Counted from the stretch's first letter, positions 20,086 through 62,256 are shown. The stretch is 64,000 bases of DNA from Candidatus Heimdallarchaeota archaeon (GCA_030608385.1 JAUWEG010000001.1:23479-87478); one strand, 5' to 3'. Notes: generated by a model not told the origin, from the letters alone. Translations and numbers: made by a program.

Positions 20086-20796
20086 TCATTCTTTTTTGGT
20101 GGTGGTTTTCTTTCTAGCTAATTGTTCTTTGGCAGATGAAACTGGTGTTTTAACTTGTTTTTCCTTAACTGTTGTTGATCTGGATTTAGCTGCTCCTGAT
20201 GGAGTGACTCCAAATATCCTGGAAATTATTGAACCAAAAGCAAAGGCAGTTATGAAATACCAAGTTGAAAAGGGAACTTTTGAGAAGAAACGTCCATTGT
20301 ACTCTTCAAGTCCAAACCAAGGGTTGCTTCCTATCCAGGGAAAATTTCCAATATTGAAAGGCAACCAAGCATAATAATGTGTTACTGGATTTGCTTCTGT
20401 GGGAACACCACTTGGAAAGGCACCTCGTAAAATTGCAAATATTAGCAAGAAAGGAATAGTTGTAAAAAGCATTGGCTTCATTCGTTTAAACATCATAGAG
20501 GATTGCATTTTCTTGATTCTTTCCTCATCCCTTTTTACACTTAACCATAATTTCTTATCTGCAGTTTGCATGGCTTTCTTTCTCCTTTGGTTCCATTCAT
20601 TGACTTTTTGCATACTTTCCTTTAATGCATCAACGTCTGAAACTACTCTGGTGATTGTTGTTGATATAATAGCAAGTAGAACAGAAGTTAATGCAATGAT
20701 CCAAGCCGAAGTAGGTCTTTGATTAAGTCCATGTTCTATCATCCAGTTTGTTAGTCCTTTAAACCAATTGTCCCAGAAAGCCATAACTAAAACCAC
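20086..20796 (-). CDS. DUF106-family membrane protein (Oxa1/EMC3/TMCO1-like insertase homologue)
   Basis: Three TM segments with a coiled-coil between TM1 and TM2 and a basic C-terminal tail. It sits at the conserved archaeal position between secY/adk and cmk. Confidence 0.65.
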   Translation of the reverse strand: MVLVMAFWDNWFKGLTNWMIEHGLNQRPTSAWIIALTSVLLAIISTTITRVVSDVDALKESMQKVNEWNQRRKKAMQTADKKLWLSVKRDEERIKKMQSSMMFKRMKPMLFTTIPFLLIFAILRGAFPSGVPTEANPVTHYYAWLPFNIGNFPWIGSNPWFGLEEYNGRFFSKVPFSTWYFITAFAFGSIISRIFGVTPSGAAKSRSTTVKEKQVKTPVSSAKEQLARKKTTTKKE

Positions 20797-25214: not shown

Positions 25215-26267
25215 ATGGGTGGAATACGAAGATATAAAAAGAAAATTCTAACACCAGGTCATCCTTATGATAAAGATCGAATTGAACGAGAGTTGCCATT
25301 AGTTGGTGAGTATGGATTACGAAACAAGAAAGAATTATGGAAAGCTAGAACTTTATTATCAAAAGCTCGACAACAAGCTCGTGCTCTTCTAGCTCTAACA
25401 CCTGAAATTAGAGAACAAAGAGCAACTGAATTATTATCCCGTTTAACTCGTTTCGGTATGCTTCCCCAAGGTGGGGATCTCGATTCTGTTCTAGCATTGA
25501 ATGTTAAAACAGTACTAAACCGCAGATTACAAACAGTTGTCTTTAGGAAAGGTTTAGCATCTTCTCCCTATCAAGCTAGACAATTTATTACACATAGACA
25601 CATCGCTCTAAATAGTGCGGTAGTTACAGCTCCTGGAATGCTAGTGAAGATAGATGAAGAAGAACATATTGCTTATGCACCAAGTTCTCCTTTAGTTAAA
25701 CAAGATCATCCTTCAAGACCACAAGCACCACCAACTCAAGTTGAAGAACCTCCTAAAAAGAAAGAAATCCCTAAGGGTAGAGGAAAGCCTAAACCTGAAG
25801 TCAAGCCTAAAGTTGAAGTCAAGCCTAAAGTTGAAGTTAAACCTAAACCTGAAGTCAAACCTAAAGTTGAAGTCAAACCTAAAGTTGAAGTCAAACCTAA
25901 ACCTGAAGTCAAACCTAAAGTTGAAGTTAAACCTAAACCTGAAGTCAAGCCTAAACCTGAAGTCAAGCCTAAACCTGAAGTTAAGCCTAAAACAGCACCT
26001 GAAGCTGCACCAAAGGAAAAACCTCTTGTTAAGAAACCTGCAGAGAAAATACCTATTGCACCAAAAGATGATATTTCATCGATTAAAGGTATTGGTGCTA
26101 AAACAGCAATGCTTCTCAAAGAAAATGGTTTCAACACAGTCGATAAAATTGCTAAAGCTACAGTTGAAGATCTTTCCAAAGTCCCAGGTATTGGTCCTGC
26201 TACTGCTGAAGCTATGAACAAAGAGGCTAAGAATTTGTTAGCCAAAAGTAAGGAGGAAGCTAAGTAG
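25215..26267 (+). CDS. rps4: ribosomal protein uS4 fused through an 11-copy PK(P/V)EVK repeat linker to a C-terminal tandem helix-hairpin-helix domain
   Basis: The first roughly 170 aa are canonical S4 (S4 RNA-binding domain, [10 protein letters not shown]). Then come the [12 protein letters not shown] repeats. The C-terminus has IKGIGAKTA ... [12 protein letters not shown] HhH motifs. Confidence 0.8.
25786..25989. repeat. tandem 18-nt repeat (cctaaa[c/g][c/t]tgaagt[c/t]aag), about 11 copies, coding
   Basis: Seen directly in the sequence. It encodes ([12 protein letters not shown])n inside rps4. No spacers are present, so this is not CRISPR. Confidence 0.85.
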
Positions 26268-26275
26268 GTGATTTT

Positions 26276-27031
26276 ATGAGTGAAGATAAAAAAGAGAAGA
26301 AAGAATCGGCTAAGAAAACTAAGGAAGACGTTGAAACTCCCAAAGTAGAAGAGAAAGTTGAAGCTCCTAAGAAAGAGAAGAAAACTTCCACTACTAAGAA
26401 GCAAGAAAAAACCGAACCTCCTAAAGAAGAAAAGAAAGCCGAACCAAAGAAACCCAAAGAGACCAAAGATAAAAAAGCCAAGGATGAAGCTAAACCTAAG
26501 AAAGAAGAAACTGAAGCTCCTAAAAAGGAAAAATCTAAAACCAAAGAAGAAGCTAAACCCGAAGAAAAGGCTAAATCTGAAGAGAAAGCTGAACCCGAAG
26601 CTAAACCTAAACCTGAATCTGAAGCTAGATCTAGAACAAGAAGAAGAGATTCTAAATACGGTGTAGCTCATATCTTTTCCAGTTACAATGATACTATCGT
26701 TCATATCACCGACATTTCAGGTGCTGAAACATTCAGCCGTAAAAGTGGAGGAATGTTTGTTAAAGCAGACAGAAATGAATCAAGTCCATATGCAGCGATG
26801 AAAGCAGCAAACTCAGCAGCACAAGAAGCGCAAAGTAAAGGAATATATCAGCTGTATGTACGTTATAGGGCACCAGGAGGACATAAGAATAGAACACCTG
26901 GACCAGGAACACAAGCAGCATTAAGGGCGCTAAAAAGATCAGGGATGAGAATATTAAGACTAGAAGATGTAACTCCTTTGCCTCATGATGGCTGTAGACG
27001 CAAAGGTGGCCGTAGAGGCCGCAGAATGTAA
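26276..27031 (+). CDS. rps11: ribosomal protein uS11 with a roughly 120 aa Lys/Glu/Pro-rich N-terminal extension
   Basis: The C-terminal 130 aa are canonical S11 ([20 protein letters not shown] ... [10 protein letters not shown]). The N-terminus is a histone-H1-like KKEK/PKKE low-complexity region. Confidence 0.85.
27002..27031 (+). repeat. direct repeat copy 1 (the last 30 nt of rps11 including its stop codon)
   Basis: aaaggtggccgtagaggccgcagaatgtaa. It matches 29354..29383 at 27 of 30 positions. Both copies are followed by T-rich tracts. Confidence 0.7.
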
Positions 27032-27075
27032 GTTTTTCTACATTTTTACTCTTTTTTTATTCTGTTTTTAGTTTG
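27032..27075 (+). terminator. T-rich tract downstream of rps11
   Basis: gtttttctacatttttactctttttttattctgtttttag. Confidence 0.3.
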
Positions 27076-27125
27076 ACATTATTGGTCTTTTTATTCCATT
27101 TTCTAGATAATTATATAGGATTTAA

Positions 27126-28307
27126 ATGGCAATAGATGAAAAGAAGAATTTCTCTTGTGAAATTTGTGGTCGTAGCTTTTCAAGAAAAGATGGTTTGTAT
27201 AGACATGTTCGATCAGTTCATTCTGAAACTAAGAAATACAAATGCAAGGATTGCGAGCTCTCTTTTTCTCGTAAAGATACCTTAGATCGTCATGTTAGTG
27301 ATGTTCATAAACAAATACGAAAGCATGTTTGTAATGAATGTGGAGAGAAATTCAAACAACCTGGTGCTCTAAAAAGACATATTCAAACAATGCATGAAAA
27401 AGACGTATTTTATGAGTGTCCACATTGTGATGCAGAGTTTTCTCGAACTGATTCTTTAAACCGTCATATCAATGCAGTTCATCTAAACCTTCGTCCCTAC
27501 ATTTGTAAAGAATGCGGCGCTTCTTTTAAGTTGTCAGGTCATCTTAAGGAGCACATAATATCTGTACATACAAACAAACGAATTCATGTGTGTGAGGAAT
27601 GTGGTTTTGCATTCAAGCTTCGTAGTCAGCTCAAAGATCATATTAGAGTTGTTCATCAAGACTTGCGTCCTCATGTATGTGAAGAATGTGATAAAGAGTT
27701 TCATCATGCAAGAAGTTTGAGGAAACATATAGTATCTGTACATACTGATAATCTTCCATATGTTTGCGAAACCTGTAAGAGGGGTTTTGCCGACCCAAGC
27801 AATCTATATAACCACAAAAAAGCTAATGCTTGCTGGTATACTTCTACTACAGCCTACAAATGGGAGGAATTGTGTAAAGAAATAGCAGAGGTTTTGTTAG
27901 CTGGTTTAGATTGGAAGTGGAAACCTAAGATTGATACTCCTGATATTGAAGAGCAGAGTTGGATTCAACCTGAAATAGTTGTATACTACGAAAATAATAC
28001 AAAAAGAATCATTGATGCTAAGAGATCTACTCTAGCGATATTCAAGGAGAAGGATTTGAAAGTGTATCCAAAAGTGGCTGAGAAGGTGGAGTTTTGGTGT
28101 CTATATGGAAAAGCTGAGGGGATGTTTGAAGAGGAAGAGGAATTTAAAGCAAGAAATAGTGAAGAGATTATTGCTGAGTTAAAGAAGAAGAAATTTGAAG
28201 AGAATCAGAGTTTTGTGGATAACTTGGTAATGAAAATTCAAATGCTGAGAAAAGGATTTGAATTTAAAGAACAAAAAATTCTTGCCAACTTCTCTGAAGA
28301 ACACTAA
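27126..28307 (+). CDS. C2H2 zinc-finger protein with eight tandem fingers plus a roughly 150 aa C-terminal domain
   Basis: Eight C-x2-C-x12-H-x3-5-H units with conserved F/L positions (for example CEICGRSFSRKDGLYRHVRSVH). The last finger is atypical (H ... C). Confidence 0.8.
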   Translation: MAIDEKKNFSCEICGRSFSRKDGLYRHVRSVHSETKKYKCKDCELSFSRKDTLDRHVSDVHKQIRKHVCNECGEKFKQPGALKRHIQTMHEKDVFYECPHCDAEFSRTDSLNRHINAVHLNLRPYICKECGASFKLSGHLKEHIISVHTNKRIHVCEECGFAFKLRSQLKDHIRVVHQDLRPHVCEECDKEFHHARSLRKHIVSVHTDNLPYVCETCKRGFADPSNLYNHKKANACWYTSTTAYKWEELCKEIAEVLLAGLDWKWKPKIDTPDIEEQSWIQPEIVVYYENNTKRIIDAKRSTLAIFKEKDLKVYPKVAEKVEFWCLYGKAEGMFEEEEEFKARNSEEIIAELKKKKFEENQSFVDNLVMKIQMLRKGFEFKEQKILANFSEEH

Positions 28308-28397
28308 GTGAAGATTGACTATTAAATCCTGAGTTTCTTAATTGCTATAAAAGCTGAAAACCTTTAATTTAAAAGTAATAATAGCATATATTTCTAC

Positions 28398-29318
28398 ATG
28401 TTAAACCAATCGAGATTGAGGGTTTTAAAAAAACTTCAAAGCTTTAGATATCCTTCTATTGTTGAAAGCATGATCAGAGAACGTATGGAAAAAATGAAAT
28501 ATTCCGAAATTCATGAAGGTGAATCTCATGCTCATCTCTGTTATAAAAGATTACAGGAATATGAAGTAAACATATTGCGATTGAAAGAAATACGTGAGAA
28601 GTTAGAACAAGAAAGAAAACTTGTTCTATCATTTTCCCTAAATGATTCAGAAGAAGAGATAATTGAACGAATACGGGAACTTAAGGAAAATGTTCAAACA
28701 AAGGAATCTAAAATAAAAGCAAAAGTTTCTTTACCTAAAACAGATGAAGAGATAAAAGAACTTACTGATGAAATTTCTTTATATTTCTCACAAGGATATG
28801 AGATGTACAAAACATCAATTGATGCAGATGTTAGTACTAGTCCCATTGTAGAATATTATGCAATGTTACAAATTATTAAAGCATTCATCTTACTTGAACT
28901 TGAAGTAGATACTCAAGAATTTCTTGGTGCTCATGGTTTAGAGAGAAAGAAAAATATAAACGATAACACAATATTTCAAGTGAAAACAAAAACTCATGGG
29001 GTTTTTGCTGCCTTATTACTACGTACAACTTCTTTTACAATAGAAGAGGATGGAACTCATACAAGTGAGTTACACAAATATTATACCGATTATTATCCAA
29101 AATTTGAGGACTTTGTTAATAAAAAGTTACCATATTTTAGAATTCCTGACACCTTCATTTTTCTATGGATTTTATCTGAAATAGCTCGATATCAACCACA
29201 GAAATGGAGAGAAATTTGCTCAGGAGTAAAAAACAATTGGATTGATAAAATAGATCTATTCAGAGAAGAAGCGGTACCAAAACTTTTCTTTGATTTACTT
29301 GAATATCATTGCAAATAA
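28398..29318 (+). CDS. hypothetical coiled-coil/helical protein (306 aa)
   Basis: Intact ORF that is the second gene of the repeat-flanked island. No recognisable motif. Confidence 0.4.
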   Translation: MLNQSRLRVLKKLQSFRYPSIVESMIRERMEKMKYSEIHEGESHAHLCYKRLQEYEVNILRLKEIREKLEQERKLVLSFSLNDSEEEIIERIRELKENVQTKESKIKAKVSLPKTDEEIKELTDEISLYFSQGYEMYKTSIDADVSTSPIVEYYAMLQIIKAFILLELEVDTQEFLGAHGLERKKNINDNTIFQVKTKTHGVFAALLLRTTSFTIEEDGTHTSELHKYYTDYYPKFEDFVNKKLPYFRIPDTFIFLWILSEIARYQPQKWREICSGVKNNWIDKIDLFREEAVPKLFFDLLEYHCK

Positions 29319-29353
29319 TCCATCAATCAATTTAGTTTCTACTTTGTAATTTC

Positions 29354-29383
29354 AAAAGTGGTCGTAGAGGCCGTAGAATGTAA
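29354..29383 (+). repeat. direct repeat copy 2 (degenerate copy of the rps11 3' end)
   Basis: aaaagtggtcgtagaggccgtagaatgtaa, with 3 mismatches to 27002..27031. Confidence 0.7.
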
Positions 29384-29443
29384 TTTTGTTCTTTTCTCAT
29401 TTTTTATTTTTCTTTTATTTTTACTTAGGTATAATTTTGTTGT

Positions 29444-30007
29444 TTATTCTTCTTCCTCATCTTCATTTTTGCTATCTTCATCAAACATTTCTATTGTCAG
29501 GTCAATATTTAATTTCTTCATGGTCTCTTCGGAAATTTTTCCCTTGCTATTTGATGCAAGAACAATCAACCCCCCATAATCCTCTATTCTCTGAAGTAGA
29601 GAATTAGTTTCGATATTAGCATATCTATCATGAGCATCTGTTATTTCAGTTCTCTTGCCAAAAAGTGCATCTGCTTCGTCAAAGAACAAGATCCAATCTT
29701 TGTTCTCAGCTTTGGAAAACAGTTTGTTTAAGTTCTTTTCAGTTTCACCAATATACTTGTTAAGAATAGAAGCAAGGTCCACGCGGAAAAGAGGATAATC
29801 TAATCTCACATCTAAATATTGAGTCATCGTCTTCCCTTCTGAAGATTTTCCAATAAGCAAAATCCTATAATTTTTGTCAAGATATTCTGATATGTTTTCC
29901 ACAATTTCATTTAATTGGAATTGGACTTCTGATGGCAAAACAATTTTTCTTGCAGCCTTTCTCTTCCAAAATGGGGTTATTCTCTGTATCATTCGTTTCT
30001 GTAGCAT
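29444..30007 (-). CDS. small stand-alone AAA-type ATPase
   Basis: Walker A GKSSEGKT and Walker B ILFFDEAD. The C-terminal tail is acidic. Confidence 0.6.
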   Translation of the reverse strand: MLQKRMIQRITPFWKRKAARKIVLPSEVQFQLNEIVENISEYLDKNYRILLIGKSSEGKTMTQYLDVRLDYPLFRVDLASILNKYIGETEKNLNKLFSKAENKDWILFFDEADALFGKRTEITDAHDRYANIETNSLLQRIEDYGGLIVLASNSKGKISEETMKKLNIDLTIEMFDEDSKNEDEEEE

Positions 30008-30135
30008 AGATAAAAGTCATGCTAAAACCATTTAAATCTAATCAAGATACAAGAAAAAAATAGAATATCCCAATCAGATAGAATTGAATAATTTTAAATA
30101 ATTCCAAACTAGGTTGGTTTTGTTTGTGATAACTT

Positions 30136-30885
30136 ATGTATGAATTATCTTTTGTTCCCAGAATAAGTGAAATTGATGTTAATGGTAAAGTGAAGATTAC
30201 CGCTTTGATGGATTATCTACAACATGTAGCTTACAAACATGCTAATCAATTAGGTATTGGTCATCGACAGATTTTCCATAAAGGTTTAACATGGTTGCTT
30301 TTACGACATACTGTTGAAATTACTCGTTATCCTGAATTAGATGAGGTTCTTAAAGTATCAAGTTGGGTTGCTGAATCAGGTAGCCCCAAATATACCATAA
30401 GAGATTTTGAAATTACAGACGAAAACAACATTATTGTCTGTAAAGCTACAACAAGTTGGTTATTATTCGATTATCGAAAAAGAAAACCAGTAGATTACAT
30501 AGATTATTGGTCAAATTATGATGTAGAGGAGAGGAGAGCTCTAAACTATGGTTTTCCTGGTTTACAATTGCCTAAGAAAATAGATACAAGACAATCACTT
30601 AGAGTAAGAAAGCAAGACCTAGATATTAATCAACATGTAAATCACATAGCACATATCCACTGGATAATTGAAGGAATGCCAGAAAAAACAGTTAAGAGAT
30701 ATGAACTGGAAAAGCTGGAGATTAGTTATAAAGAACAAGTATTTCATGAAGACAACATTACTGTAGAATCAGAAATTCAGAAAGAAAAGGATAATGAAAC
30801 TATCAAGGCATTTCATCAGTTAATTAAAGGTAAGAAGGAAAAACTTGTTTCCAAAGCAATAACACACTGGAAATTACAAGAGTAA
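30136..30885 (+). CDS. acyl-ACP thioesterase family protein (tandem hotdog)
   Basis: Two hotdog halves. The second half carries the acyl-ACP thioesterase signature D-x-NQHVNH-x3-I-x-W. Confidence 0.7.
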   Translation: MYELSFVPRISEIDVNGKVKITALMDYLQHVAYKHANQLGIGHRQIFHKGLTWLLLRHTVEITRYPELDEVLKVSSWVAESGSPKYTIRDFEITDENNIIVCKATTSWLLFDYRKRKPVDYIDYWSNYDVEERRALNYGFPGLQLPKKIDTRQSLRVRKQDLDINQHVNHIAHIHWIIEGMPEKTVKRYELEKLEISYKEQVFHEDNITVESEIQKEKDNETIKAFHQLIKGKKEKLVSKAITHWKLQE

Positions 30886-30950
30886 ATGATATTCATTCTA
30901 TGCCCAAAGTTTTTTCTACAGCTAACATTTCTTGTTTTTAGGTACTTTCA

Positions 30951-31781
30951 ATGTCCATAAAAAAAATAAAAGATAATGTTTATGCTATAACTGATGGTAG
31001 CACTCGCGGGAATGTTGCTGCATATGTTCTACCTAGTCAGATAGTTTTTGTTGATTCTGGTATGCATATCCCCCTAATAAAGAAATTTAGAGAGCATATT
31101 GAACGAGAAACGGGAAAGAAAGCTTCTGTTCTCTTTATAACTCACGCTCACGGAGACCATGTTTTTGGTAATCAGATTTTTGAAGATTGTGAAATCATCA
31201 CTTCGGAGTTAACCCATGAAGCAATGGTTGACTCACAGAAGAATAATTGGACTCCAGAAGCCTTAGAAGAATGGAAAAAGAATTCAGAAGACCCTTTAGC
31301 TTTGGATGGATTAAAGATAGTTCTTGCTAACAAAACATTTGCAGATGAGTATGAATTAGTAGATCGTGATGTAAAGGTTATTGTAAAGAGAACAGGTGGA
31401 CATACAGCGGGATCCAGTTATGTTTATTGCCCCAATTACAAAGTAATGTTTGCGGGAGATAACCTCTTTAATCATAGCTTTCCATGGGGCGGAACTCCTA
31501 CTTCAGATCCTTTGAAATGGGTAGAATCTATACAAGAATATCTATCACTAGATGTAGAGAACTATATCCCAGGTCATGGTTCAATATCTGGAAAGGAAAC
31601 TTTAGAAGAGTTTTTAGCTTATCTTAACAAAGTTATTTCGCTTATGAAGGAAATGATTGCCGAAGGAAAAACCGAAGAAGAAATTCTTGAACAAGCTGAT
31701 AAAATTGATTATTATCCCTCAAAAAGAGAACAATGGAAGGCATTATCACTAAAAAAATGGTATGAAGTTATAACAAGTTAG
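30951..31781 (+). CDS. MBL-fold metallo-hydrolase
   Basis: ITHAHGDHVFG (HxHxDH) plus downstream His and Asp ligands. Confidence 0.8.
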   Translation: MSIKKIKDNVYAITDGSTRGNVAAYVLPSQIVFVDSGMHIPLIKKFREHIERETGKKASVLFITHAHGDHVFGNQIFEDCEIITSELTHEAMVDSQKNNWTPEALEEWKKNSEDPLALDGLKIVLANKTFADEYELVDRDVKVIVKRTGGHTAGSSYVYCPNYKVMFAGDNLFNHSFPWGGTPTSDPLKWVESIQEYLSLDVENYIPGHGSISGKETLEEFLAYLNKVISLMKEMIAEGKTEEEILEQADKIDYYPSKREQWKALSLKKWYEVITS

Positions 31782-31813
31782 ATCTTTTTTGTGTCTTCCA
31801 ACAATTATTCACT

Positions 31814-32698
31814 TCAATGTTCAAAGTCTTTAAACATGACAACAATCACGGAACCAGGACCCGTAAAACTATATGTTATGCCACTCATTGGAATGATTCC
31901 ATAGAAATTTACTTCAGGAAATTGTTCAGTTAGAATCTGTTTTGCAAGAGTTGATCCTTTTTCTGCATTCCCCGAAACGATATAACATCCCAAATTCTTG
32001 AAGTGTTTTATCAAGTTATATGCTTGAGTTACAATAGCTTCTATTGCTTCTTCATATGATTTTGCTTGATTAAAAGAGTTAATCCCACCATCTTGTGTTC
32101 CTTCCAAACAAGGATAAATATTCAGAAGAGACCCCATAACGAATTTTATAAGCCCTATTCTACCGCTTCTTTGTAAGTATTTTAAGCTTTCAAAAGTAAA
32201 AGTAGTTTTTAGTTCAGTACTCTTAAACTCATTCAAGCGAGAAATTATTTTTGTGAAATCCTTTCCTTCGCTAAAAAGTTTAGCTGCTTTTATAACTGAA
32301 ATACCCACTCCAAAGGATCCCTCTTTAGAGTCATATTGATGGAATTTGATTATTCCTCCCTGTTTCTGATATTGAATGATACTCGCTTTAACGGTGTTAA
32401 CTATTCCAGTACCTCTTGATGTCATATTAATTATGAAGATATCTTCATATCCTTCCTCTTCCAAGTGTTTGAAAGTGTTTACAAAATAATTTATGCTTGG
32501 TTGAATGGGTTTAGGCATTTTTTTACTGGTATGAATTCTCTTCAAAAATTCTTCATAAGTGATTTCACTTGGATATAATAGTTCTTCATTAGTGTCTGGA
32601 AACTCCACAGGTACTTGTATTGTAAAAATATTGTATTTTTCTATTAAATTTGAAGGAATATCAGCTGCTATATTTGCTAAGATGACTGCACTTGTCAT
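31814..32698 (-). CDS. DegV-family fatty-acid-binding protein
   Basis: N-terminus VILANIAADIPSNLIEKYNIFTIQVPV matches the DegV consensus IAIVTDSTADLP ... KYNI .. VPL. GR-containing SGRIG motif is present. Size is 294 aa. Confidence 0.7.
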   Translation of the reverse strand: MTSAVILANIAADIPSNLIEKYNIFTIQVPVEFPDTNEELLYPSEITYEEFLKRIHTSKKMPKPIQPSINYFVNTFKHLEEEGYEDIFIINMTSRGTGIVNTVKASIIQYQKQGGIIKFHQYDSKEGSFGVGISVIKAAKLFSEGKDFTKIISRLNEFKSTELKTTFTFESLKYLQRSGRIGLIKFVMGSLLNIYPCLEGTQDGGINSFNQAKSYEEAIEAIVTQAYNLIKHFKNLGCYIVSGNAEKGSTLAKQILTEQFPEVNFYGIIPMSGITYSFTGPGSVIVVMFKDFEH

Positions 32699-32844: not shown

Positions 32845-34641
32845 ATGGGTTATGCTAGTATTACTTTTTTATTATTTGTTGCTTATATTCCCCTTATTTG
32901 GATAATTTTCCGTATAAGACAAAGAAGCAAAGGATTAGGATATTTCGCAGCAGTTGTTTTCTTAGTGCTGCTACTAGGAGTTTGGATAGTTGGATTTCTC
33001 AATCGTATAATAATGGTAGGAGCTATTGAACATTTAATTATAGTAGGATCAGTAACAACTCTTACTACGGTAATATTTGAACTAACGATTAGTAGGATTA
33101 ATCTCTTAGTTAGATTTAAAAGAAGAAGGGAAGCTCTCTTATCCATAGTTATCCTGATACTTCTAGTCATTGTAGGTGGTCAAACCCTGTTGGGTGTACG
33201 GAAAACAATGCTAAGCGCAAAATATTTTGAAAATACTGTCACATATGACGAAACAAATCTGCCTTTTCTTGTTTTCGATGAAGAAAATGAGATTGATAAT
33301 AACATAAGACTTGTTACTAAAGAATTTGCAATAAGCAAAGCTGAACAGAACAAAGCTGTGTTTGGTTCTAATGCAGTGCTGACAGAAGCTAATGTGATAT
33401 ATGTTAACGATTCTATATACTGGTGCATGATTTATGCACCGAAGAAATCTGCGCAAATATGGAGATCAGGACAATTTAACCTTGCTTGGGGATTGGTTTT
33501 AGTAGAGGTCAATAACCCAAATGCTGAACCTGTAATTATCAACTTTGTAAAAGGTGATTTCAATTATGCAGAAGGTCTATGGTATAATCATGATATTAAC
33601 TTGAAGAATTATCGACGTGATCAAAAGGCCAAATATTGGCGTTCTTATCCTGCATGGACCGGGACAGAGTGGGTATATATTGTTACACGATCAACTAGAA
33701 ACGTCTATGGTGCGTGGTTATCAGACGGTATCGATGTATTAGATATCAAGACCGGTGAAATAATCACTCATTATGCAGCTGATGAACTAGATACGACTCC
33801 CAAATATATTCTGCAGGTTTTTTCAGAAGATTTGATAGAATTAGAATGGATTATAAAATGGGGAAATAAGCGAGATACAACAGCAGATGGAAATATACGC
33901 TTATTGCCTGGATTTCCTCACTATAGTTCAGATAGACTTGGATTCTACGGAGAAGGTGTTGAAGACATCAGATATGTCAAATGTCAAAATTCAACTCTTG
34001 CTTTCTTCGCTACACATCCAAGAGATTCTTCAGAAACCTTAGCTGGAATTGGGATTATAAGGAAAAATGGAACAACATTCTATAACTTGAGAGAAAGAGG
34101 TTACATTTCTGCTGTCACAGCTTCAAAGTTAGCGGAAGGTCAACTTACAATCCCTAATGAGGGGAGTTACATTGTTCAGATGCCTGTACCTTATACTCTA
34201 AATACTTCAATAGGATTTAGGCTTGCTTGGTTTATCCCAATTTATTGGCAAAGTGGTACTGTGCAAAGATTATCTTATGTATGTGTGATTGATGCTTTAG
34301 ATTCTAGCTACATCTCTATAGCGGAGGCTGAAGGTTTATCAGGTTCTCAAGTAGTAAGAGAAGCGCGATTACAGTTCAAATCTTTCTTCGCTTCAGAAAT
34401 CCCTCAACAAGAGTACATAACAGCTGAAATTGATAATTTGGGTTCATATGTAGATGACGGAAATAGTATTTTTGTGTTCCAATTAAATAATTCAAAGATA
34501 ATTCGATGCTCACAGGGTTATCTCAATGAAACACATTGGAACCAAGTTGTTCTAGCTGAAATAGGAAATGTAATTCACTATACTTATACTGAAGATGATG
34601 ATGGAATTCTTTGGGCAACAGAATTTTTTGTTATTTCTTAA
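32845..34641 (+). CDS. membrane-anchored hypothetical protein (N-terminal 4 TM plus a roughly 450 aa extracytoplasmic domain)
   Basis: The N-terminal 120 aa are hydrophobic. The remainder is rich in W/Y/N/T with several NxS/T sequons. Confidence 0.4.
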   Translation: MGYASITFLLFVAYIPLIWIIFRIRQRSKGLGYFAAVVFLVLLLGVWIVGFLNRIIMVGAIEHLIIVGSVTTLTTVIFELTISRINLLVRFKRRREALLSIVILILLVIVGGQTLLGVRKTMLSAKYFENTVTYDETNLPFLVFDEENEIDNNIRLVTKEFAISKAEQNKAVFGSNAVLTEANVIYVNDSIYWCMIYAPKKSAQIWRSGQFNLAWGLVLVEVNNPNAEPVIINFVKGDFNYAEGLWYNHDINLKNYRRDQKAKYWRSYPAWTGTEWVYIVTRSTRNVYGAWLSDGIDVLDIKTGEIITHYAADELDTTPKYILQVFSEDLIELEWIIKWGNKRDTTADGNIRLLPGFPHYSSDRLGFYGEGVEDIRYVKCQNSTLAFFATHPRDSSETLAGIGIIRKNGTTFYNLRERGYISAVTASKLAEGQLTIPNEGSYIVQMPVPYTLNTSIGFRLAWFIPIYWQSGTVQRLSYVCVIDALDSSYISIAEAEGLSGSQVVREARLQFKSFFASEIPQQEYITAEIDNLGSYVDDGNSIFVFQLNNSKIIRCSQGYLNETHWNQVVLAEIGNVIHYTYTEDDDGILWATEFFVIS

Positions 34642-37657: not shown

Positions 37658-38383
37658 TTATCTGTATTCTGTGGGATCGTCTATACTTGCTTGAAGAAAA
37701 GCTCTTTTTCTCCTTTGGCAAGACTCACAGGTGCCACAATGTATTGGTTTTCCTTCATTTGTCCATTCCTCTATTTGGTAGCAGGATGATGAAAAAGCCA
37801 TTTTGGCATTGTTTTCAGTAAGAAATACAACTATGTCCTTCTTATCTGAATCATGAAATGGGGCTTGAATTGTAACTTGGTTTAAACACCCTAATTCAAT
37901 TGATTTATTCATCCTATTAACAAAATCTAAGGTATTATCTGGAAATGTGGTTCCTTCTTCCTTATTAGCTCCAAAAATTATATCTGTTGGTACTGTTGAA
38001 CTATCAGCTAAAGAAGCTGCTATTGAAAGAAAGAGAATATTTCTTCCTGGAATCCAAACTTCTTTAGCAGTTTGCAAAGCTAAATCTTTCCTATCTAATT
38101 GTTCAAAGGAGCTAACTTCTGGAGGTTTCTTTTCAGATTTTGTAAGACTAGAACCAGCTTCTTGGGAAAATTCTTCTAGAAAAGGCAAATTGATAATCTT
38201 AGTTTTAACAGAAAGCAAGGAGGAAAACTTTTTGTTGACCTTGATAATGGTTTGATCTTCTTTACTACCATAAAGAAAACTTAGTAGAGTTATTTCATCA
38301 TATTTTTGCATTGTCCAATATAAACATGCGGTGGAATCCATTCCCCCTGAAAACAAGACAATCGCTTTTCGCATATTTTTCAC
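37658..38383 (-). CDS. queC: 7-cyano-7-deazaguanine (preQ0) synthase QueC
   Basis: PP-loop LFSGGMDS. C-terminal zinc cluster CGTCESCQRRKRAF. Confidence 0.85.
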   Translation of the reverse strand: MKNMRKAIVLFSGGMDSTACLYWTMQKYDEITLLSFLYGSKEDQTIIKVNKKFSSLLSVKTKIINLPFLEEFSQEAGSSLTKSEKKPPEVSSFEQLDRKDLALQTAKEVWIPGRNILFLSIAASLADSSTVPTDIIFGANKEEGTTFPDNTLDFVNRMNKSIELGCLNQVTIQAPFHDSDKKDIVVFLTENNAKMAFSSSCYQIEEWTNEGKPIHCGTCESCQRRKRAFLQASIDDPTEYR

Positions 38384-38437
38384 CTGTTATCTACTGATAT
38401 TTCCGTATTATTCACGTATTATTTTCTCTTTAAAATC

Positions 38438-38890
38438 TCATTCTGTATATGTCACAACACTTGTAGGTGTCTCTGCCATTGTAATAGTTATTTTGAATTG
38501 AGGATACTGTTTTTTTATTAGGCTGTGAAAATATTTAGCCAATAGCTCTACAGTGGTTGCTTCTAAAGGGAGCAAAATTACATCCTCTCTTGGAAAACGA
38601 TAATATCTTCCTTCACATGTGTCAACTATGACTTGTTTGTCTGTGGTTGTTATTTTTAAGTCCTTGTTAAAATCGGGAATAAGAACTCTGTGATCAAATT
38701 TTTTTACTATCTTCCCAACAGCTGTTTTGAAGATCCCAAAATCAATCAACATATTATTTTCATCCATTTTTCCTTCAACTTCAACCTCAATATCATAATT
38801 ATGACCATGGAGGCGTGCACATTTATCATGTCTTGTTAACATATGTGCTGAAGCAAAGGTTAATTTGTCACCAGAGATTTTTAATTTCAA
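38438..38890 (-). CDS. queD: 6-carboxy-5,6,7,8-tetrahydropterin synthase QueD (PTPS family)
   Basis: C-x3-HGHNY motif (CARLHGHNYDIE). Size is 150 aa. Confidence 0.85.
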   Translation of the reverse strand: MKLKISGDKLTFASAHMLTRHDKCARLHGHNYDIEVEVEGKMDENNMLIDFGIFKTAVGKIVKKFDHRVLIPDFNKDLKITTTDKQVIVDTCEGRYYRFPREDVILLPLEATTVELLAKYFHSLIKKQYPQFKITITMAETPTSVVTYTE

Positions 38891-38898
38891 ATTATCAC

Positions 38899-39531
38899 CT
38901 ATATTGTTCTAGTTTTTGCAATATCCTCTTTAATTTTGGATATTTCACTTACATATTTCTCAGCTATTTGAATTGCCAAGTTTTGTATTTCTTCTGTTTG
39001 TACTCCAAGATCCGTTAAACCAATAGCTTGAACATGTTCTGGAACTCCTGTGCTAAGGATATTTATTCCAAAGTGGATTTTACTACTTGAAATTCCTACT
39101 GTCGCGATTCCCACGTTTAGTTTTTTTCCATCAACGAAAATATCTGTTCCTTTTCTTTCAATTTGAATATTTTTTTCCTTCAAAATATCGATGACTGTTT
39201 GAGCAAATATCCGGAGTCTGTAATATTCTAATTCCATATTTGGTGGTTGTATATCAAATTCCTCAATTATGAAATGTAGGGAATCATCAGAACTAATTAA
39301 AATATTACTCAAGTGCGATTCTCTGAGAATATCTTTAATATCAACCATTTCCTTTGGAGAAAGCTTCATTCCCCCTCTAAAAACAAGAATACTATCTCCT
39401 ATTATACCATATTTTTCAGCTGTAAAATGACTTGAAAGCTGAGATCCATCATAAATCATTTGATTAGCAAAATCTTCTACAATGATATGATATGGCGGTT
39501 TATTTATTGTCTTCATTTGCTTCCAATCCAT
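38899..39531 (-). CDS. hypothetical protein embedded in the preQ0 cluster (210 aa)
   Basis: Intact ORF whose start overlaps the folE2 stop by 32 nt. No recognisable motif. Confidence 0.4.
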   Translation of the reverse strand: MDWKQMKTINKPPYHIIVEDFANQMIYDGSQLSSHFTAEKYGIIGDSILVFRGGMKLSPKEMVDIKDILRESHLSNILISSDDSLHFIIEEFDIQPPNMELEYYRLRIFAQTVIDILKEKNIQIERKGTDIFVDGKKLNVGIATVGISSSKIHFGINILSTGVPEHVQAIGLTDLGVQTEEIQNLAIQIAEKYVSEISKIKEDIAKTRTI

Positions 39532-40471
39532 TAAGTTGTTCCATCAATTTCTTTAAAGATATTTTAACTTCTGCAACTGCATTATGTTGATGAATGCTTT
39601 CATAGTTAATTTGTTTGACACAAATTAATGTTTCTGGGGGCTGATTTAAGTATTTTTTAGAAACTTTCTGCAAAATCGATCTTACAACATCCTCAACAAA
39701 GGCTGGATGTTGATGTGCATAGAGAACAACAGCTTGCTCATCTTTTCGTTTTAGTACTTCATGTGTAGGTGAGCTCATCGATGTTTCTAGTATTCCAATT
39801 ATATCTTCAAGTTCTATTCTTTCTGCATCTCTTGGTTGCTCAATTACTAAAATTGATTTTGATCTCTGATTATGCGATGCTAAAGGTATGGTTTCAATTA
39901 CGTAATCTATTTGTTCCTCTGTGAACCCCTCTTCTGCAAGTTTTTCCTTAGCAAAATCCCTTGATAGTTCTTGAGAACAGGGACAGACTGTTGTTCCTTC
40001 AACCTCTGCACCAATTATTTTAGTAATCGTAATATTTTCTCCAGTTTTATGCGCAAGAGCTCCAGCTCTTAATTTGTGAACACTGGATTTCTTCCTTCCA
40101 ATGGCTTCTGAATGAGTTTCCATTTCATAATCTGCAACAAGTGTTACTTCAGCATTAGTTGCTCCTGGTTGAATAGAAAGAACCTTTTCTGCAATTTGAG
40201 CACATAATTCTTCACAATCAGAAATAACTTCTCCTGTAAGTGTTGATATAACTTCATTAATAGCTTCTAGATTTCGGGACATGTGAATTCCTCTTTTTGA
40301 AGGCAATAAATCGACATAAACATCTATTTTTGCTGATAATTCATTATATTCACCAAAACGTTTCCTACGAATAATTTTTGGAATATCACTAACTCCTACT
40401 CTCCTAATACCTATCTGTATTTTTGATTCATCTGATTGAACATCTGATAGTTTTTTGCTATTTAGATTCAT
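39500..40471 (-). CDS. folE2: GTP cyclohydrolase FolE2/MptA family (type IB)
   Basis: IQIGIRRVGVSDI ... LLPSKRGIHMSRN pattern of GCH-IB. Size is 323 aa. Confidence 0.75.
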   Translation of the reverse strand: MNLNSKKLSDVQSDESKIQIGIRRVGVSDIPKIIRRKRFGEYNELSAKIDVYVDLLPSKRGIHMSRNLEAINEVISTLTGEVISDCEELCAQIAEKVLSIQPGATNAEVTLVADYEMETHSEAIGRKKSSVHKLRAGALAHKTGENITITKIIGAEVEGTTVCPCSQELSRDFAKEKLAEEGFTEEQIDYVIETIPLASHNQRSKSILVIEQPRDAERIELEDIIGILETSMSSPTHEVLKRKDEQAVVLYAHQHPAFVEDVVRSILQKVSKKYLNQPPETLICVKQINYESIHQHNAVAEVKISLKKLMEQLNGLEANEDNK

Positions 40472-40480
40472 CTTTATTCC

Positions 40481-41290
40481 CTACAAGATTTCTACGGCTT
40501 TGTGCATTTGTATTGAAATCCCTATTTTTTCAGGTGAAAGAAATTTCCCAGCAATTTGAGAGAAATCATTCACTTGCTCCCATGTTGGTTGTTCAACCTT
40601 AGAATTAACTATTGGTGTAACAAATTGGATAACAATGGGAAGATCTATGGATCCACACTTCTTTGCAATAATCTCAAAATTTTCTTTTTTTGAGGCTTTG
40701 GTTATTACAGTTTTTGCAAATACTTTAGTTCCTGCGTTTTTTAGTATCCTACTCATTTCTACTTCCTGATTTACAAGATTCTCCCATTCTAGAGCAGCAT
40801 TCGCTGTTTTATCCTTTATATCTACACATGCAAAATCAATTTTTTCTGATAATTTTTCTAGAAACACAAAATTATCCGTGTATGCTGTTTCTAAATATGT
40901 TTTATATCCTGCTTCTTTGAGAAGGCTAGTAATATCTTCAAAAAATGATTCCTGATACAAGGGCTCTCCCCCTGTCAAACTTACAGAGTGCAAATCCTTA
41001 GTAGAAAGCTTTTTCACAAAATCTAAAATTTCTTCAGGTGTCAAAGGGTTAGATATTTCTTCAAAGGATTGAGTTCCTGCTTGTGTTTCCACAAGACATT
41101 TTGATGGAGTTGTACTCCAAGATTTCGGAGAATCACACCAGATACAACCTTTTGTTCCATGAACACCTAAAGCAAGAGGACATCCTGAGAATCTGATGAA
41201 AATCTGTCTTAATCCATAACAGCTTCCTTCAACTGCTGCTCCTTCACCTTGGAAACTTGAGAATATTTCCTGTACGTAACCCTGTGACAT
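40481..41290 (-). CDS. queE: 7-carboxy-7-deazaguanine synthase QueE (radical SAM)
   Basis: EIFSSFQGEG and FIRFSGC signatures of QueE. Confidence 0.8.
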   Translation of the reverse strand: MSQGYVQEIFSSFQGEGAAVEGSCYGLRQIFIRFSGCPLALGVHGTKGCIWCDSPKSWSTTPSKCLVETQAGTQSFEEISNPLTPEEILDFVKKLSTKDLHSVSLTGGEPLYQESFFEDITSLLKEAGYKTYLETAYTDNFVFLEKLSEKIDFACVDIKDKTANAALEWENLVNQEVEMSRILKNAGTKVFAKTVITKASKKENFEIIAKKCGSIDLPIVIQFVTPIVNSKVEQPTWEQVNDFSQIAGKFLSPEKIGISIQMHKAVEIL

Positions 41291-62253: not shown

Positions 62254-62256
62254 TTT

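What the first reader, a model, noticed from the sequence alone, without database searches (positions are those of the whole stretch)
29444..32698. Fatty-acid-related island: acyl-ACP thioesterase, DegV fatty-acid-binding protein, MBL hydrolase and a small AAA ATPase
Acyl-ACP thioesterase and DegV are bacterial-type fatty-acid metabolism proteins, whereas archaea build isoprenoid lipids. Their clustering, plus an hbd gene at 46971, hints at bacterial-like fatty-acid handling and is relevant to the archaeal-bacterial lipid divide. The island starts right after the repeat-flanked insertion.
Basis: partly seen in the sequence, partly recalled or inferred. Interest (0 to 1): 0.55.

Follow-up and report, generated by a model that had tools for sequence, protein, structure and literature searches.

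The report
Thioesterase, metallo-hydrolase and DegV genes
A Heimdall-group (Asgard) archaeon keeps an old, bacteria-derived trio of genes side by side (a fatty-acyl thioesterase, a zinc hydrolase and a fatty-acid-binding-type protein), but both lipid proteins have changed key residues, so this is probably a remodelled way of handling free fatty acids and not the standard bacterial pathway.

Summary
All four ORFs exist at the stated coordinates and the family calls hold: AAA 29444-30007(-), two-hotdog acyl-ACP-type thioesterase (TE) 30136-30885(+), MBL-fold hydrolase 30951-31781(+), DegV 31814-32698(-). The window comes from a Heimdallarchaeaceae archaeon.

The four genes are not one unit.
- **Core.** TE, MBL and DegV are conserved neighbours. 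TE and MBL are the most persistent pair. DegV is confined to a subclade.
- **AAA.** This small IetA-like gene belongs to a hypervariable hot spot between rps11 and TE.
- **hbd.** It is a real 3-hydroxyacyl-CoA dehydrogenase, but it lies 14 kb away and is unlinked.

The TE keeps the D-x-N-x-H motif but has Gln where the family's catalytic Glu sits. Its nearest relatives outside the archaeal clades are bacterial, at 36% identity or less. The DegV has a confident FakB-like fold but has lost two of the three carboxylate-binding residues (Thr to Pro, His to Phe) and the FakA-docking Arg (to Lys). These changes are fixed in nearly all relatives.

No ACP, FakA or Pls gene was seen nearby, and genome-wide presence could not be tested.

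The best reading is an ACP- and FakA-independent module for releasing and binding free fatty acids. It is a variant of known parts and is moderately interesting.

The parts
30136..30885 (+). Two-hotdog thioesterase of the acyl-ACP thioesterase (Fat/TE14) family. D163, N165 and H167 are present. Gln201 stands at the position of the family's catalytic Glu.
   Evidence: Pfam PF01643 and PF20791. Best PDB matches are 4gak (8e-25) and plant FatA/FatB. D, N and H are invariant or nearly so in 154 relatives, while Gln replaces Glu only in the archaeal clades and a few others. The catalytic residue set is taken from PMC9659231.
30951..31781 (+). Cytosolic MBL-fold binuclear-zinc hydrolase of unknown substrate. 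It lies 65 nt downstream of TE on the same strand and is the most persistent neighbour of TE.
   Evidence: PF00753. H65-x-H67-x-D69-H70, H151, D170 and H209 are invariant in the six orthologues of alignment A2. Below all NCBIfam cut-offs. The best solved relatives are B1 lactamases at only 1e-12. It is adjacent to TE in the window type, in reversed order in L026, and nearby in L009.
31814..32698 (-). DegV-family lipid-binding protein, convergent with the MBL gene. Its head-group site is remodelled: P64, T93 and F278 replace Thr, Ser and His; R180 is kept; K213 replaces the FakA-docking Arg.
   Evidence: PF02645 and TIGR00762 above cut-off; the FakB1 equivalog scores 130 bits against a cut-off of 350. 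AF2 model has pLDDT 93 and matches FakB1 at TM 0.86. Residue states come from alignments A1 and A3.
29444..30007 (-). Small stand-alone AAA ATPase (Walker A G53-T60, Walker B DEAD-like), divergent from TE. It is variable cargo and not part of the conserved core.
   Evidence: PF00004. Partial IetA-like match covering profile positions 85-231 of 374. Present in only one (L005, 48% identity, degenerate P-loop) of the eight related genomes, plus one short contig carrying an identical MBL gene.
30008..30135 (.). Divergent AAA/TE intergenic region. It holds an A/T-rich TATA-like element (ttttaaata) about 36-44 nt upstream of the TE start codon.
   Evidence: Read directly from the sequence. Promoter function is inferred, not tested.
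29353..29424 (+). Right-hand copy of the duplicated rps11 3' end. The left copy is at 27001-27077. It marks the boundary of the zinc-finger/YaaC insertion, immediately left of the AAA gene.
   Evidence: the repeat finder families D3 and D1. A local alignment confirms it, and the same duplication is found in L001 and L002 but only a single copy in L007.

Best explanation
TE, MBL and DegV form a long-resident neighbourhood of bacterial origin in Heimdallarchaeaceae. It is wedged between the rps13-rps4-rps11 operon (plus an insertion hot spot) and a conserved housekeeping block.

**Proposed mechanism**
1. The TE14-type thioesterase hydrolyses medium- or long-chain acyl thioesters to free fatty acid. 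In an archaeon expected to lack ACP, the substrate is most likely acyl-CoA from CoA-dependent fatty-acid synthesis or beta-oxidation-type enzymes.
2. The DegV protein binds that fatty acid, or a related lipid, in its hydrophobic tunnel as a soluble carrier or buffer. It does not present the acid to a FakA kinase.
3. The zinc MBL-fold hydrolase, TE's most persistent partner, performs a neighbouring hydrolytic step on an unknown lipid or thioester substrate.

**Status of each step**
- Shown: family membership, fold, residue states, synteny, and the bacterial affinity of the nearest relatives.
- Inferred: substrates, functional coupling, and independence from ACP and FakA.

The AAA gene and hbd are not part of the module.
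For: **Family and fold:**

**TE**
- D163, N165 and H167 are intact, and the gene is under purifying selection.
- The nearest relatives outside the archaeal clades are at most 36% identical. They sit in bacterial contexts (MreB, DnaX/RecR, MCP/CheW) or carry the names KSB1, Calditrichia and Aminicenantales.
- GC content is ameliorated to the genome mean, so the acquisition is old.

**Synteny**
- TE-MBL-DegV is found in 6 of 8 close genomes.
- The orthologous MBL (75% identity) is adjacent to TE in reversed order in L026, and is nearby in L009.
- A different MBL-fold gene lies beside the clade-B TE in L012.
- Clade-B TE lies 3-6 kb from a second, canonical DegV clade in L012 and in L022/L023.

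**DegV**
- The changes are fixed: P64 in 14 of 15, F278 in 15 of 15, K213 in 15 of 15.
- Bacterial-like DegVs have T in 74 of 79, H in 72 of 79 and R in 79 of 79.
- These residues bind the carboxylate and dock FakA (PMC10848957).

**Background**
- ACP is absent from nearly all archaea, and a CoA-dependent archaeal fatty-acid synthase exists whose marker gene pairs are common in Asgard genomes (bioRxiv 10.1101/2024.07.05.601840).
- Route from thioesterase to free fatty acid to DegV-family protein is established in Firmicutes (PMC12288450).
Against: - No biochemical data exist for any of the three proteins.
- The three genes are not an operon. DegV is convergent, L006 separates TE from MBL-DegV, L003 keeps DegV alone, L025 keeps TE alone, and L009 and L026 lack DegV. 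Among close relatives, gene order could be inherited without functional coupling.
- Gln at the catalytic Glu position may weaken or alter TE activity.
- With Pro and Phe at the head-group site, the DegV may not bind a fatty-acid carboxylate at all.
- Absence of ACP and FakA in this genome was not tested. It rests on the literature and on about 20 kb neighbourhoods.
- The MBL substrate is entirely unknown.
Confidence: 0.45

Rival explanations
1. The genes are neighbours without a shared function. TE, MBL and DegV would be three unrelated accessory genes that happen to lie on a conserved backbone next to an insertion hot spot, and their co-occurrence reflects shared ancestry of closely related genomes.
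For: There are three transcription units with mixed orientation. Every pairwise combination is broken somewhere: L003, L006, L009, L025 and L026. The flanking backbone (rps13-rps4-rps11 ... NIF3-like-NSUN-QueC) is conserved just as well.
Against: The TE-MBL pair survives an order reversal inside a rearranged context in L026. A second TE clade again sits beside an MBL-fold gene and near a DegV of a different clade. Both families are described as rare or absent in archaea.
Confidence: 0.3
2. This is the canonical bacterial-type route. TE would cleave acyl-ACP made by a FAS II system. DegV would act as FakB and present the fatty acid to FakA. The resulting acyl-phosphate would feed PlsY and PlsC to make ester lipids.
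For: This exact route exists in Firmicutes as TesE/TesS plus FakAB (PMC12288450). PlsY and PlsC homologues occur in some Asgard genomes, including Heimdall LC_2 (PMC6431249, PMC6737245). R180, the carboxylate-stabilising Arg, is kept.
Against: The DegV lacks Thr61-equivalent, His264-equivalent and the FakA-docking Arg202-equivalent. The R202A change abolishes FakA binding (PMC10848957). The FakB1 equivalog scores 130 bits against a cut-off of 350. No Dak2/FakA, ACP, Fab or Pls gene is found in any neighbourhood. The circular Ca. Heimdallarchaeum genomes lack PlsC (PMC8813620). ACP is absent from nearly all archaea (bioRxiv 10.1101/2024.07.05.601840).
Confidence: 0.08
3. The proteins have been repurposed or weakened. 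With Glu changed to Gln in TE, and Thr to Pro and His to Phe in DegV, they would no longer handle fatty acids. They might instead bind or process a different hydrophobic ligand, such as an isoprenoid-derived acid or alcohol or a CoA ester from another pathway.
For: The substitutions fall exactly on catalytic or ligand-head-group positions and are fixed across the clade. The host makes isoprenoid lipids (general knowledge of archaea).
Against: D, N and H in TE and the Arg in DegV are retained. The overall folds and tunnels are family-typical. Gln can still hydrogen-bond the catalytic His. There is no positive evidence for any alternative ligand.
Confidence: 0.12
4. The whole span is a mobile or defence island.
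For: The AAA protein resembles the anti-phage ATPase IetA. The region directly abuts a repeat-flanked insertion and a hot spot whose cargo differs in each genome.
Against: PADLOC gives no significant hit for TE or DegV and only marginal ones for MBL. The three genes are stably inherited with native GC content. The AAA match is partial and no IetS partner is present. No integrase is present.
Confidence: 0.03

Closest known systems
TesE/TesS acyl-ACP thioesterase plus the FakA/FakB fatty-acid kinase system of Firmicutes (Enterococcus, Streptococcus, Staphylococcus)
   Same: The same two protein families are paired: a PF01643 thioesterase that releases free fatty acid and a DegV-family protein that binds it. 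The fold matches S. aureus FakB1 at TM 0.86.
   Different: The host is an archaeon. No FakA, ACP or PlsX/PlsY was seen nearby. The DegV lacks Thr61, His264 and Arg202 equivalents. The TE has Gln in place of the catalytic Glu. Here the genes are chromosomal neighbours together with an MBL-fold hydrolase, which is not part of the Firmicute system.
Plant FatA/FatB and bacterial TE14 acyl-ACP thioesterases (for example UcFatB 5x04, Spirosoma 4gak)
   Same: Two tandem hotdog domains, a D-x-N-x-H catalytic motif, and a length of about 250 aa.
   Different: Identity is only 31-36% (to the nearest bacterial relatives; no identity was computed for the plant/PDB entries, which match at E 8e-25 to 3e-14). 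Glu319-equivalent is Gln. ACP, the defining substrate carrier, is not expected in the host.
ACP-independent archaeal fatty-acid synthase of Sulfolobus acidocaldarius (ketothiolase/DUF35, reductases; bioRxiv 10.1101/2024.07.05.601840)
   Same: It offers a CoA-based source of acyl thioesters in archaea, and its marker gene pairs are common in Asgard genomes. The text search of that paper found no mention of a thioesterase, so a terminating thioesterase is a logical missing step.
   Different: None of those genes is in this window. Any link to this TE is inference only.
Canonical DegV clade of Heimdall/Asgard MAGs (P0250-P0289; loci L012, L021-L024)
   Same: It belongs to the same family, occurs in the same phylum, and also lies near a TE in L012 and L022/L023.
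   Different: That clade keeps the TSQP motif and the His. It is only 22-29% identical to the window's DegV, which scores higher against bacterial-like DegVs (117 bits) than against this clade (84-92 bits). Both archaeal clades have lost the FakA-docking Arg.
MBL-fold thioester or lipid hydrolases (glyoxalase II, PqsE, MBLAC2, NAPE-PLD). This comparison is recalled from general knowledge and was not tested here.
   Same: A complete binuclear-metal motif set (HxHxDH, H, D, H) with Asp, not Cys, at the bridging position. The protein is cytosolic with no signal peptide.
   Different: There is no specific sequence match to any of them. The best solved hits are B1 beta-lactamases at 1e-12, and all NCBIfam scores fall far below their cut-offs.

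Membership tests
Acyl-ACP thioesterase (Pfam PF01643/PF20791; TE14, Fat family) | Two tandem hotdog domains (N and C) matched over the full length and above the curated cut-offs | tested here: met
   PF01643 scores 81.4 bits (cut-off 23.7) and PF20791 scores 60.5 bits (cut-off 21). All seven PDB hits are acyl-ACP thioesterases.
Acyl-ACP thioesterase (Pfam PF01643/PF20791; TE14, Fat family) | Catalytic Asp-x-Asn-x-His motif (UcFatB D281, N283, H285) | tested here: met
   D163, N165 and H167 are present. D and H are invariant in 154 of 154 sequences and N is found in 144 of 154.
Acyl-ACP thioesterase (Pfam PF01643/PF20791; TE14, Fat family) | Glu of the Asp-His-Glu catalytic network (UcFatB E319) | tested here: not met
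   Gln201 stands at this position in both archaeal TE clades, against Glu in 126 of 154 relatives. The residue role is taken from PMC9659231.
Acyl-ACP thioesterase (Pfam PF01643/PF20791; TE14, Fat family) | The substrate is acyl-ACP, so ACP and FAS II must be present in the genome | not testable with these tools
   Only the 64 kb window and about 20 kb neighbourhoods could be read, and none contains a PP-binding or Fab gene. The literature reports that ACP is absent from nearly all archaea.
DegV / FakB fatty-acid-binding family (PF02645, TIGR00762) | DegV domain above the curated cut-offs, with a DegV rather than other EDD fold | tested here: met
   TIGR00762 scores 176.9 bits against a cut-off of 99.7. 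The AF2 model (pLDDT 93.1) matches 45 DegV/FakB chains at TM 0.76-0.87, while FakA_C and DhaK match at about 0.5.
DegV / FakB fatty-acid-binding family (PF02645, TIGR00762) | Carboxylate-binding triad Thr61/Ser93/His264, plus Arg170 | tested here: not met
   The window has P64, T93 and F278. Only R180 and a hydroxyl at position 93 are retained. The changes are fixed in 14-15 of 15 relatives. Residue roles are taken from PMC10848957.
FakB (kinase-partner subunit; NF038249 FakB1 equivalog) | Equivalog score cut-off, and the FakA-docking Arg202 with Leu181 | tested here: not met
   The score is 129.9 bits against a cut-off of 350. The Arg202-equivalent is K213 in 15 of 15, against R in 79 of 79 bacterial-like DegVs. 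The Leu181-equivalent is kept.
FakB (kinase-partner subunit; NF038249 FakB1 equivalog) | A FakA (Dak2-domain) partner encoded in the genome | not testable with these tools
   No Dak2 gene was seen in the window or in any fetched neighbourhood. No whole-genome search was possible.
Metallo-beta-lactamase superfamily (PF00753) | HxHxDH motif plus the downstream His, Asp and His metal ligands | tested here: met
   H65, H67, D69, H70, H151, D170 and H209 are invariant in the six orthologues of alignment A2. PF00753 scores 66.6 bits against a cut-off of 22.7.
True class B beta-lactamase, or the SoxH-related PQQ relay hydrolase | NCBIfam equivalog cut-offs | tested here: not met
   bla_subclass_B1 scores 58.6 bits against 200, and SoxH_rel_PQQ_1 scores 94 bits against 300. 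No signal peptide is present, and Asp rather than Cys stands at the bridging ligand position.
IetA anti-phage AAA ATPase (IetAS system) | Full-length IetA match with an adjacent IetS protease | tested here: not met
   NF042959 scores 52.5 bits against a cut-off of 510. The PADLOC match covers only profile positions 85-231 of 374. The neighbouring genes are TE and a YaaC-like gene, with no protease.
Single operon or coherent four-gene island | Co-orientation and joint conservation of all four genes | tested here: not met
   The strand pattern is -,+,+,-. The AAA gene is absent from L001, L002, L004 and L007. TE and MBL are absent from L003, and TE is displaced in L006.

The most novel reading that the evidence does not exclude
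Heimdall-group archaea, among the closest known relatives of eukaryotes, may carry a dedicated module for free fatty acids that needs neither ACP nor a kinase. A TE14 thioesterase retuned (Glu to Gln) for acyl-CoA would terminate archaeal CoA-based fatty-acid synthesis. A DegV carrier would have lost the FakA interface and rebuilt its head-group pocket. A conserved zinc hydrolase would complete the set. The host lineage would then have had its own way to make and traffic fatty acids before it acquired bacterial-type lipid synthesis.
Probability: 0.15. Interest if true: 0.7.

Novelty: new variant of a known kind. Interest (0 to 1): 0.4.

Why it matters
How the archaeal ancestor of eukaryotes moved from isoprenoid ether lipids to fatty-acid ester lipids is still an open question. 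Published surveys of Asgard lipid genes concentrate on G1PDH, GpsA, PlsY and PlsC. I found no discussion of a thioesterase or DegV in the searchable literature.

This locus shows that one Heimdall family has stably inherited a thioesterase and a DegV of bacterial origin. Both carry clade-fixed changes at catalytic or ligand-binding positions. A second thioesterase/DegV pairing exists in other Heimdall/Asgard lineages.

These findings yield concrete proteins that can be expressed, and specific point mutants (TE Q201E; DegV P64T, F278H, K213R). With them one can test whether Asgard archaea release and carry free fatty acids without ACP or FakA. If the answer is no, these are ordinary accessory genes acquired by horizontal transfer.

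Tried and rejected
- **C-terminal DegV fragment against PDB.** I searched the last 90 residues alone to view the His motif. It returned only noise. I replaced it with alignments to bacterial DegV/FakB genes taken from the plasmid collection and with a 117-sequence alignment.
- **MBL structure.** A single-sequence AlphaFold model was unusable (pLDDT 48.5), so no fold search was run on it. A PDB profile search gave only generic B1 lactamase hits.
- **Identity of L012.** Exact cluster look-ups for the L012 contig returned no names. Its Heimdall/Asgard affinity rests on the names of its DegV relatives and on synteny with GCA_013166835.
- **Supplementary tables.** Those of the circular Heimdallarchaeum paper were searched for DegV, thioesterase, ACP, PlsY, Dak2 and lipid terms. 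Nothing was found.
- **TE tree.** A Biopython neighbour-joining tree timed out. I used a distance matrix and nearest-neighbour lists instead, so no bootstrapped phylogeny exists.
- **Promoter scan.** The sigma-70 promoter and terminator scan was not used because the host is an archaeon. Only a visual TATA-like element is reported.
- **Rejected readings.** The MBL is not a secreted beta-lactamase, because it has no signal peptide and falls below the cut-offs. The AAA gene is not part of a fatty-acid module, because it is patchy and IetA-like. The hbd gene is not part of the cluster, because it is 14 kb away among unrelated genes. This is not a recent horizontal-transfer island, because its GC content is native.
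- **Not possible.** Genome-wide searches for ACP, FabH/FabF, FakA and PlsX/PlsY/PlsC in Heimdallarchaeaceae.


Full report
**1. Observation**

The stated span, 29444-32698, runs exactly from the end of one ORF to the end of another and holds four long ORFs.

| Gene | Coordinates | Length | Family evidence |
|---|---|---|---|
| AAA | 29444-30007 (-) | 187 aa | PF00004, 3.8e-16 |
| TE | 30136-30885 (+) | 249 aa | PF01643 6.1e-23 and PF20791 1.9e-16, both halves of an acyl-ACP thioesterase |
| MBL | 30951-31781 (+) | 276 aa | PF00753, 3.8e-18 |
| DegV | 31814-32698 (-) | 294 aa | PF02645 1.4e-46; TIGR00762 176.9 bits, cut-off 99.7 |

The hbd gene at 46971-47831 is a genuine 3-hydroxyacyl-CoA dehydrogenase.

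**2. Organism and setting**

Relatives of the DegV gene in the genome collection all come from 'Candidatus Heimdallarchaeota archaeon' MAGs, including AB_125. The window therefore belongs to Heimdallarchaeaceae.

The genes lie between the rps13-rps4-rps11 operon and a block made up of a 598-aa membrane protein, a NIF3-like gene, an NSUN methyltransferase and a QueC/QueD/FolE2 cluster. GC content of the three core genes is 32-35.5%, against a window mean of 34.3%. This is not a compositional island.

**3. What is core and what is not**

I ran tblastn of the window's proteins against eight related loci.

- TE-MBL-DegV appear in the same arrangement in L001, L002, L004, L005 and L007. L008 also fits but is cut short.
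- L003 has DegV without TE or MBL.
- L006 has TE moved about 7 kb away from an intact MBL-DegV pair.

Deeper relatives, with TE at 59-62% identity, give further arrangements.

- L009 has TE, DUF3604, a small ORF and MBL, with no DegV.
- L026 has the orthologous MBL (75% identity) immediately upstream of TE in a rearranged context.
- L025 has TE alone.

TE-MBL is therefore the most persistent pair, and the window-type DegV is limited to a subclade.

Among the eight genomes, the AAA gene occurs only in L005, at 48% identity and with a degenerate P-loop. One short contig carrying an identical MBL gene also has it.

The stretch between rps11 and TE holds different cargo in every genome. Examples are YaaC-like, HIT, APH and Imm5-like genes, small unknowns and the AAA gene; in L007 it is empty.

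The duplicated 3' end of rps11 (27001-27077 and 29353-29424) brackets the zinc-finger and YaaC genes. The same duplication is present in L001 and L002 but not in L007.

The strand pattern is -,+,+,-. At most, TE and MBL (65-nt gap) could be co-transcribed.

**4. Thioesterase**

- *Solved relatives.* All solved relatives are acyl-ACP thioesterases: Spirosoma 4gak at 8e-25, then plant FatA/FatB.
- *Closest sequences.* An exhaustive search of 1.84 billion representative proteins found 6127 relatives. Outside the window's own clade the best match is 44% identical (P0069). Everything else is at most 36%.
- *Bacterial affinity.* The named relatives or those with readable context are bacterial: KSB1, Calditrichia and Aminicenantales, and contigs with MreB, DnaX/RecR or MCP/CheW neighbours.
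- *A second archaeal clade.* P0069 and a 74%-identical protein in Asgard MAG GCA_013166835 form clade B. The nearest neighbours of clade B are the window-type sequences.
- *Residues.* D163, N165 and H167 are conserved. D and H are found in 154 of 154 sequences. The position of UcFatB Glu319 is Gln201 in both archaeal clades, against Glu in 126 of 154 (residue roles from PMC9659231).

The protein is a member of the family. It was probably acquired from bacteria long ago, and it carries one clade-specific change in the catalytic network.

**5. DegV**

An AlphaFold model built on 117 sequences is confident (pLDDT 93.1). It matches 45 DegV/FakB fatty-acid-binding structures at TM 0.76-0.87. FakA_C and DhaK match at only about 0.5. 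It therefore groups with true DegV proteins.

I aligned it with S. aureus FakB2, other bacterial DegVs and 102 further homologues.

| Residue (S. suis FakB2 numbering) | Window type | Bacterial-like DegVs |
|---|---|---|
| Thr61 | P64, 14 of 15 | T, 74 of 79 |
| Ser93 | T93, 15 of 15 | S, 78 of 79 |
| His264 | F278, 15 of 15 | H, 72 of 79 |
| Arg170 | R180, kept | R, all |
| Arg202 | K213, 15 of 15 | R, 79 of 79 |

In S. suis FakB2, H264, T61 and S93 hold the carboxylate, and the R202A change abolishes FakA binding (PMC10848957). The FakB1 equivalog model scores 130 bits against a cut-off of 350.

The protein is thus a DegV by family and fold. It fails the features that define a FakB working with FakA.

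**6. A second DegV clade**

The DegV next to clade-B TE in L012 keeps the TSQP motif and the His. It has 50-74% identical relatives in many Heimdall/Asgard MAGs, after which identity drops to about 43% for bacterial proteins.

- In L012 it lies 2.8 kb from TE.
- In L022/L023 it lies 5.7 kb from TE.
- Both sit in a shared block ordered FmdA, TE, Pyr_redox, isochorismatase, DegV, cupin.
- L024 has the same block without TE.

This clade has also largely lost Arg202: K in 13, T in 7 and R in 2 of 23. The window's DegV is not a recent copy of it, since it scores 84-92 bits against this clade and up to 117 bits against bacterial-like sequences.

Two different TE clades lying near two different DegV clades is the best evidence for a functional link, but it rests on few loci.

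**7. MBL**

All metal ligands are invariant: H65, H67, D69, H70, H151, D170 and H209. The protein is more conserved than TE, at 74% against 59% between the window and L009. It has no signal peptide.

It falls far below every NCBIfam cut-off. Its best solved relatives are B1 lactamases, at only 1e-12. The substrate is unknown. In L012 a different MBL-fold family (Lactamase_B_3/B_2) sits beside clade-B TE.

**8. AAA and hbd**

The AAA protein has a Walker A motif (G53-T60) and a Walker B motif. It matches only the core of the IetA anti-phage ATPase and has no IetS partner. It belongs to the hot spot.

The hbd gene lies among a Ras-like GTPase, RadA and PolB genes, with no other beta-oxidation gene nearby.

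**9. Mechanism**

The family-level chemistry is established: a thioesterase frees fatty acid, and DegV proteins bind it. In Firmicutes the route TesE/TesS to FakAB to PlsY uses exactly these families (PMC12288450).

The setting here is different.

- ACP is reported absent from nearly all archaea, and a CoA-based archaeal fatty-acid synthase exists (bioRxiv 10.1101/2024.07.05.601840).
- The circular Heimdallarchaeum genomes lack PlsC (PMC8813620).
- The DegV has lost its FakA interface.

I therefore favour the following, at confidence 0.45. TE hydrolyses acyl-CoA to free fatty acid. The DegV acts as a kinase-independent lipid carrier or buffer with a remodelled head-group pocket. The MBL is an associated hydrolase.

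Substrates and coupling are inferred.

| Rival | Confidence |
|---|---|
| Co-location without coupling | 0.30 |
| Repurposing to another hydrophobic ligand | 0.12 |
| Canonical ACP/FakAB route | 0.08 |
| Mobile or defence island | 0.03 |

**10. Novelty**

Public annotations already call these proteins 'acyl-[ACP] thioesterase' and 'DegV family' in Heimdall MAGs. The genes themselves are therefore not new.

I found no paper discussing them. The searches that paired these families with archaeal, Asgard or Heimdall terms returned nothing relevant.

Three points appear new:
- the fixed active-site and ligand-site substitutions;
- the loss of the FakA-docking Arg in both archaeal DegV clades;
- the recurrent thioesterase, MBL-fold and DegV neighbourhood.

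This is a variant of known parts and is moderately interesting (0.4).

**11. Limits**

- No genome-wide search for ACP, Fab, FakA or Pls genes was possible.
- There is no bootstrapped tree.
- The taxonomy of L012 is indirect.
- Nothing here is biochemical.

Noticed in passing
window 27001-27077 and 29353-29424: The 3' end of rps11 and about 60 nt downstream are duplicated (89% identity over the 35-nt core) as direct repeats around a 2.35 kb insert that carries the zinc-finger and YaaC-like genes. The same duplication is present in L001 and L002, while L007 has one copy and no insert. It looks like an att-type scar of an integration into the rps11 end, yet the insert has no integrase.
   Followed up: partly
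window 27126-28307 (+): A 393-aa protein with about eight C2H2 zinc fingers (PF00096, 5.8e-44) and a highly conserved C-terminal domain of about 150 aa with no family match. It is conserved beside rps11 across Heimdallarchaeaceae (47-89% identity, sometimes two copies). Long C2H2 arrays are unusual in archaea.
   Followed up: partly
window 25215-27031: Ribosomal protein S4 carries a long Lys/Pro/Glu/Val tandem-repeat extension and a C-terminal helix-hairpin-helix domain. S11 carries a Lys/Glu-rich N-terminal extension of about 120 aa. S4 with an HhH domain is also seen in L009, L025 and L026.
   Followed up: no
between rps11 and TE: window 27036-30135; L002, L003, L004, L005, L009, L025, L026: A hypervariable hot spot whose cargo differs in every genome. 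Cargo includes YaaC-like, small IetA-like AAA, HIT-family, APH kinase, ATC_hydrolase and Imm5-like genes, a 300-aa unknown and small nucleotidyltransferase-like ORFs. It resembles a defence or accessory island anchored at a ribosomal operon.
   Followed up: partly
L012:13532-14419; L022/L023:8001-8891; L024:8001-8888; L021:7114-9158: A second, canonical DegV clade (TSQP motif and His kept) is widespread in Heimdall/Asgard MAGs. It lies 3-6 kb from a second TE clade within a conserved block ordered FmdA, TE, Pyr_redox, isochorismatase, DegV, cupin. L021 has two tandem DegV genes right after an ABC transporter.
   Followed up: partly
alignment A3, column of window K213: Both archaeal DegV clades lack the FakA-docking arginine. 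The window type has K in 15 of 15. The canonical Asgard clade has K in 13, T in 7 and R in 2 of 23. All 79 bacterial-like DegVs have R. This hints that archaeal DegVs in general work without FakA.
   Followed up: partly
window 56929-60383 (-), 60394-63929 (-): An ATP-citrate-lyase-like gene pair. One gene fuses CoA-ligase alpha and citryl-CoA lyase/citrate-synthase domains, and the other is an ATP-grasp beta subunit. Aconitase-family genes lie next to it. This could supply acetyl-CoA or form part of a reverse TCA cycle.
   Followed up: no
window 41370-41837 (-), 46256-46807 (-), 20086-20796 (-): Genes of eukaryotic-signature type: a ubiquitin-conjugating E2 (UQ_con, 3.5e-34), a Ras-family small GTPase (1.1e-33) and an EMC3/TMCO1-like membrane protein (1.3e-17).
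   Followed up: no
window 32845-34641 (+): A 598-aa protein with an N-terminal multi-pass membrane region and a large domain that matches no family. It is divergent from DegV. It is 77-98% conserved where present (L001, L004, L005, L006, L008) but absent from L002, L003 and L009.
   Followed up: no
window 37658-41290 (-): A 7-deazaguanine (archaeosine/queuosine precursor) cluster made up of QueC, PTPS/QueD, DUF366, FolE2-type GTP cyclohydrolase and a radical-SAM gene. Its gene order is conserved in L009 and L025.
   Followed up: no
L009:10793-12979: In Asgard MAG GCA_013166775 a 728-aa DUF3604/CehA-McbA-like metallohydrolase and a 69-aa ORF are inserted between TE and MBL, all on one strand.
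   Followed up: no
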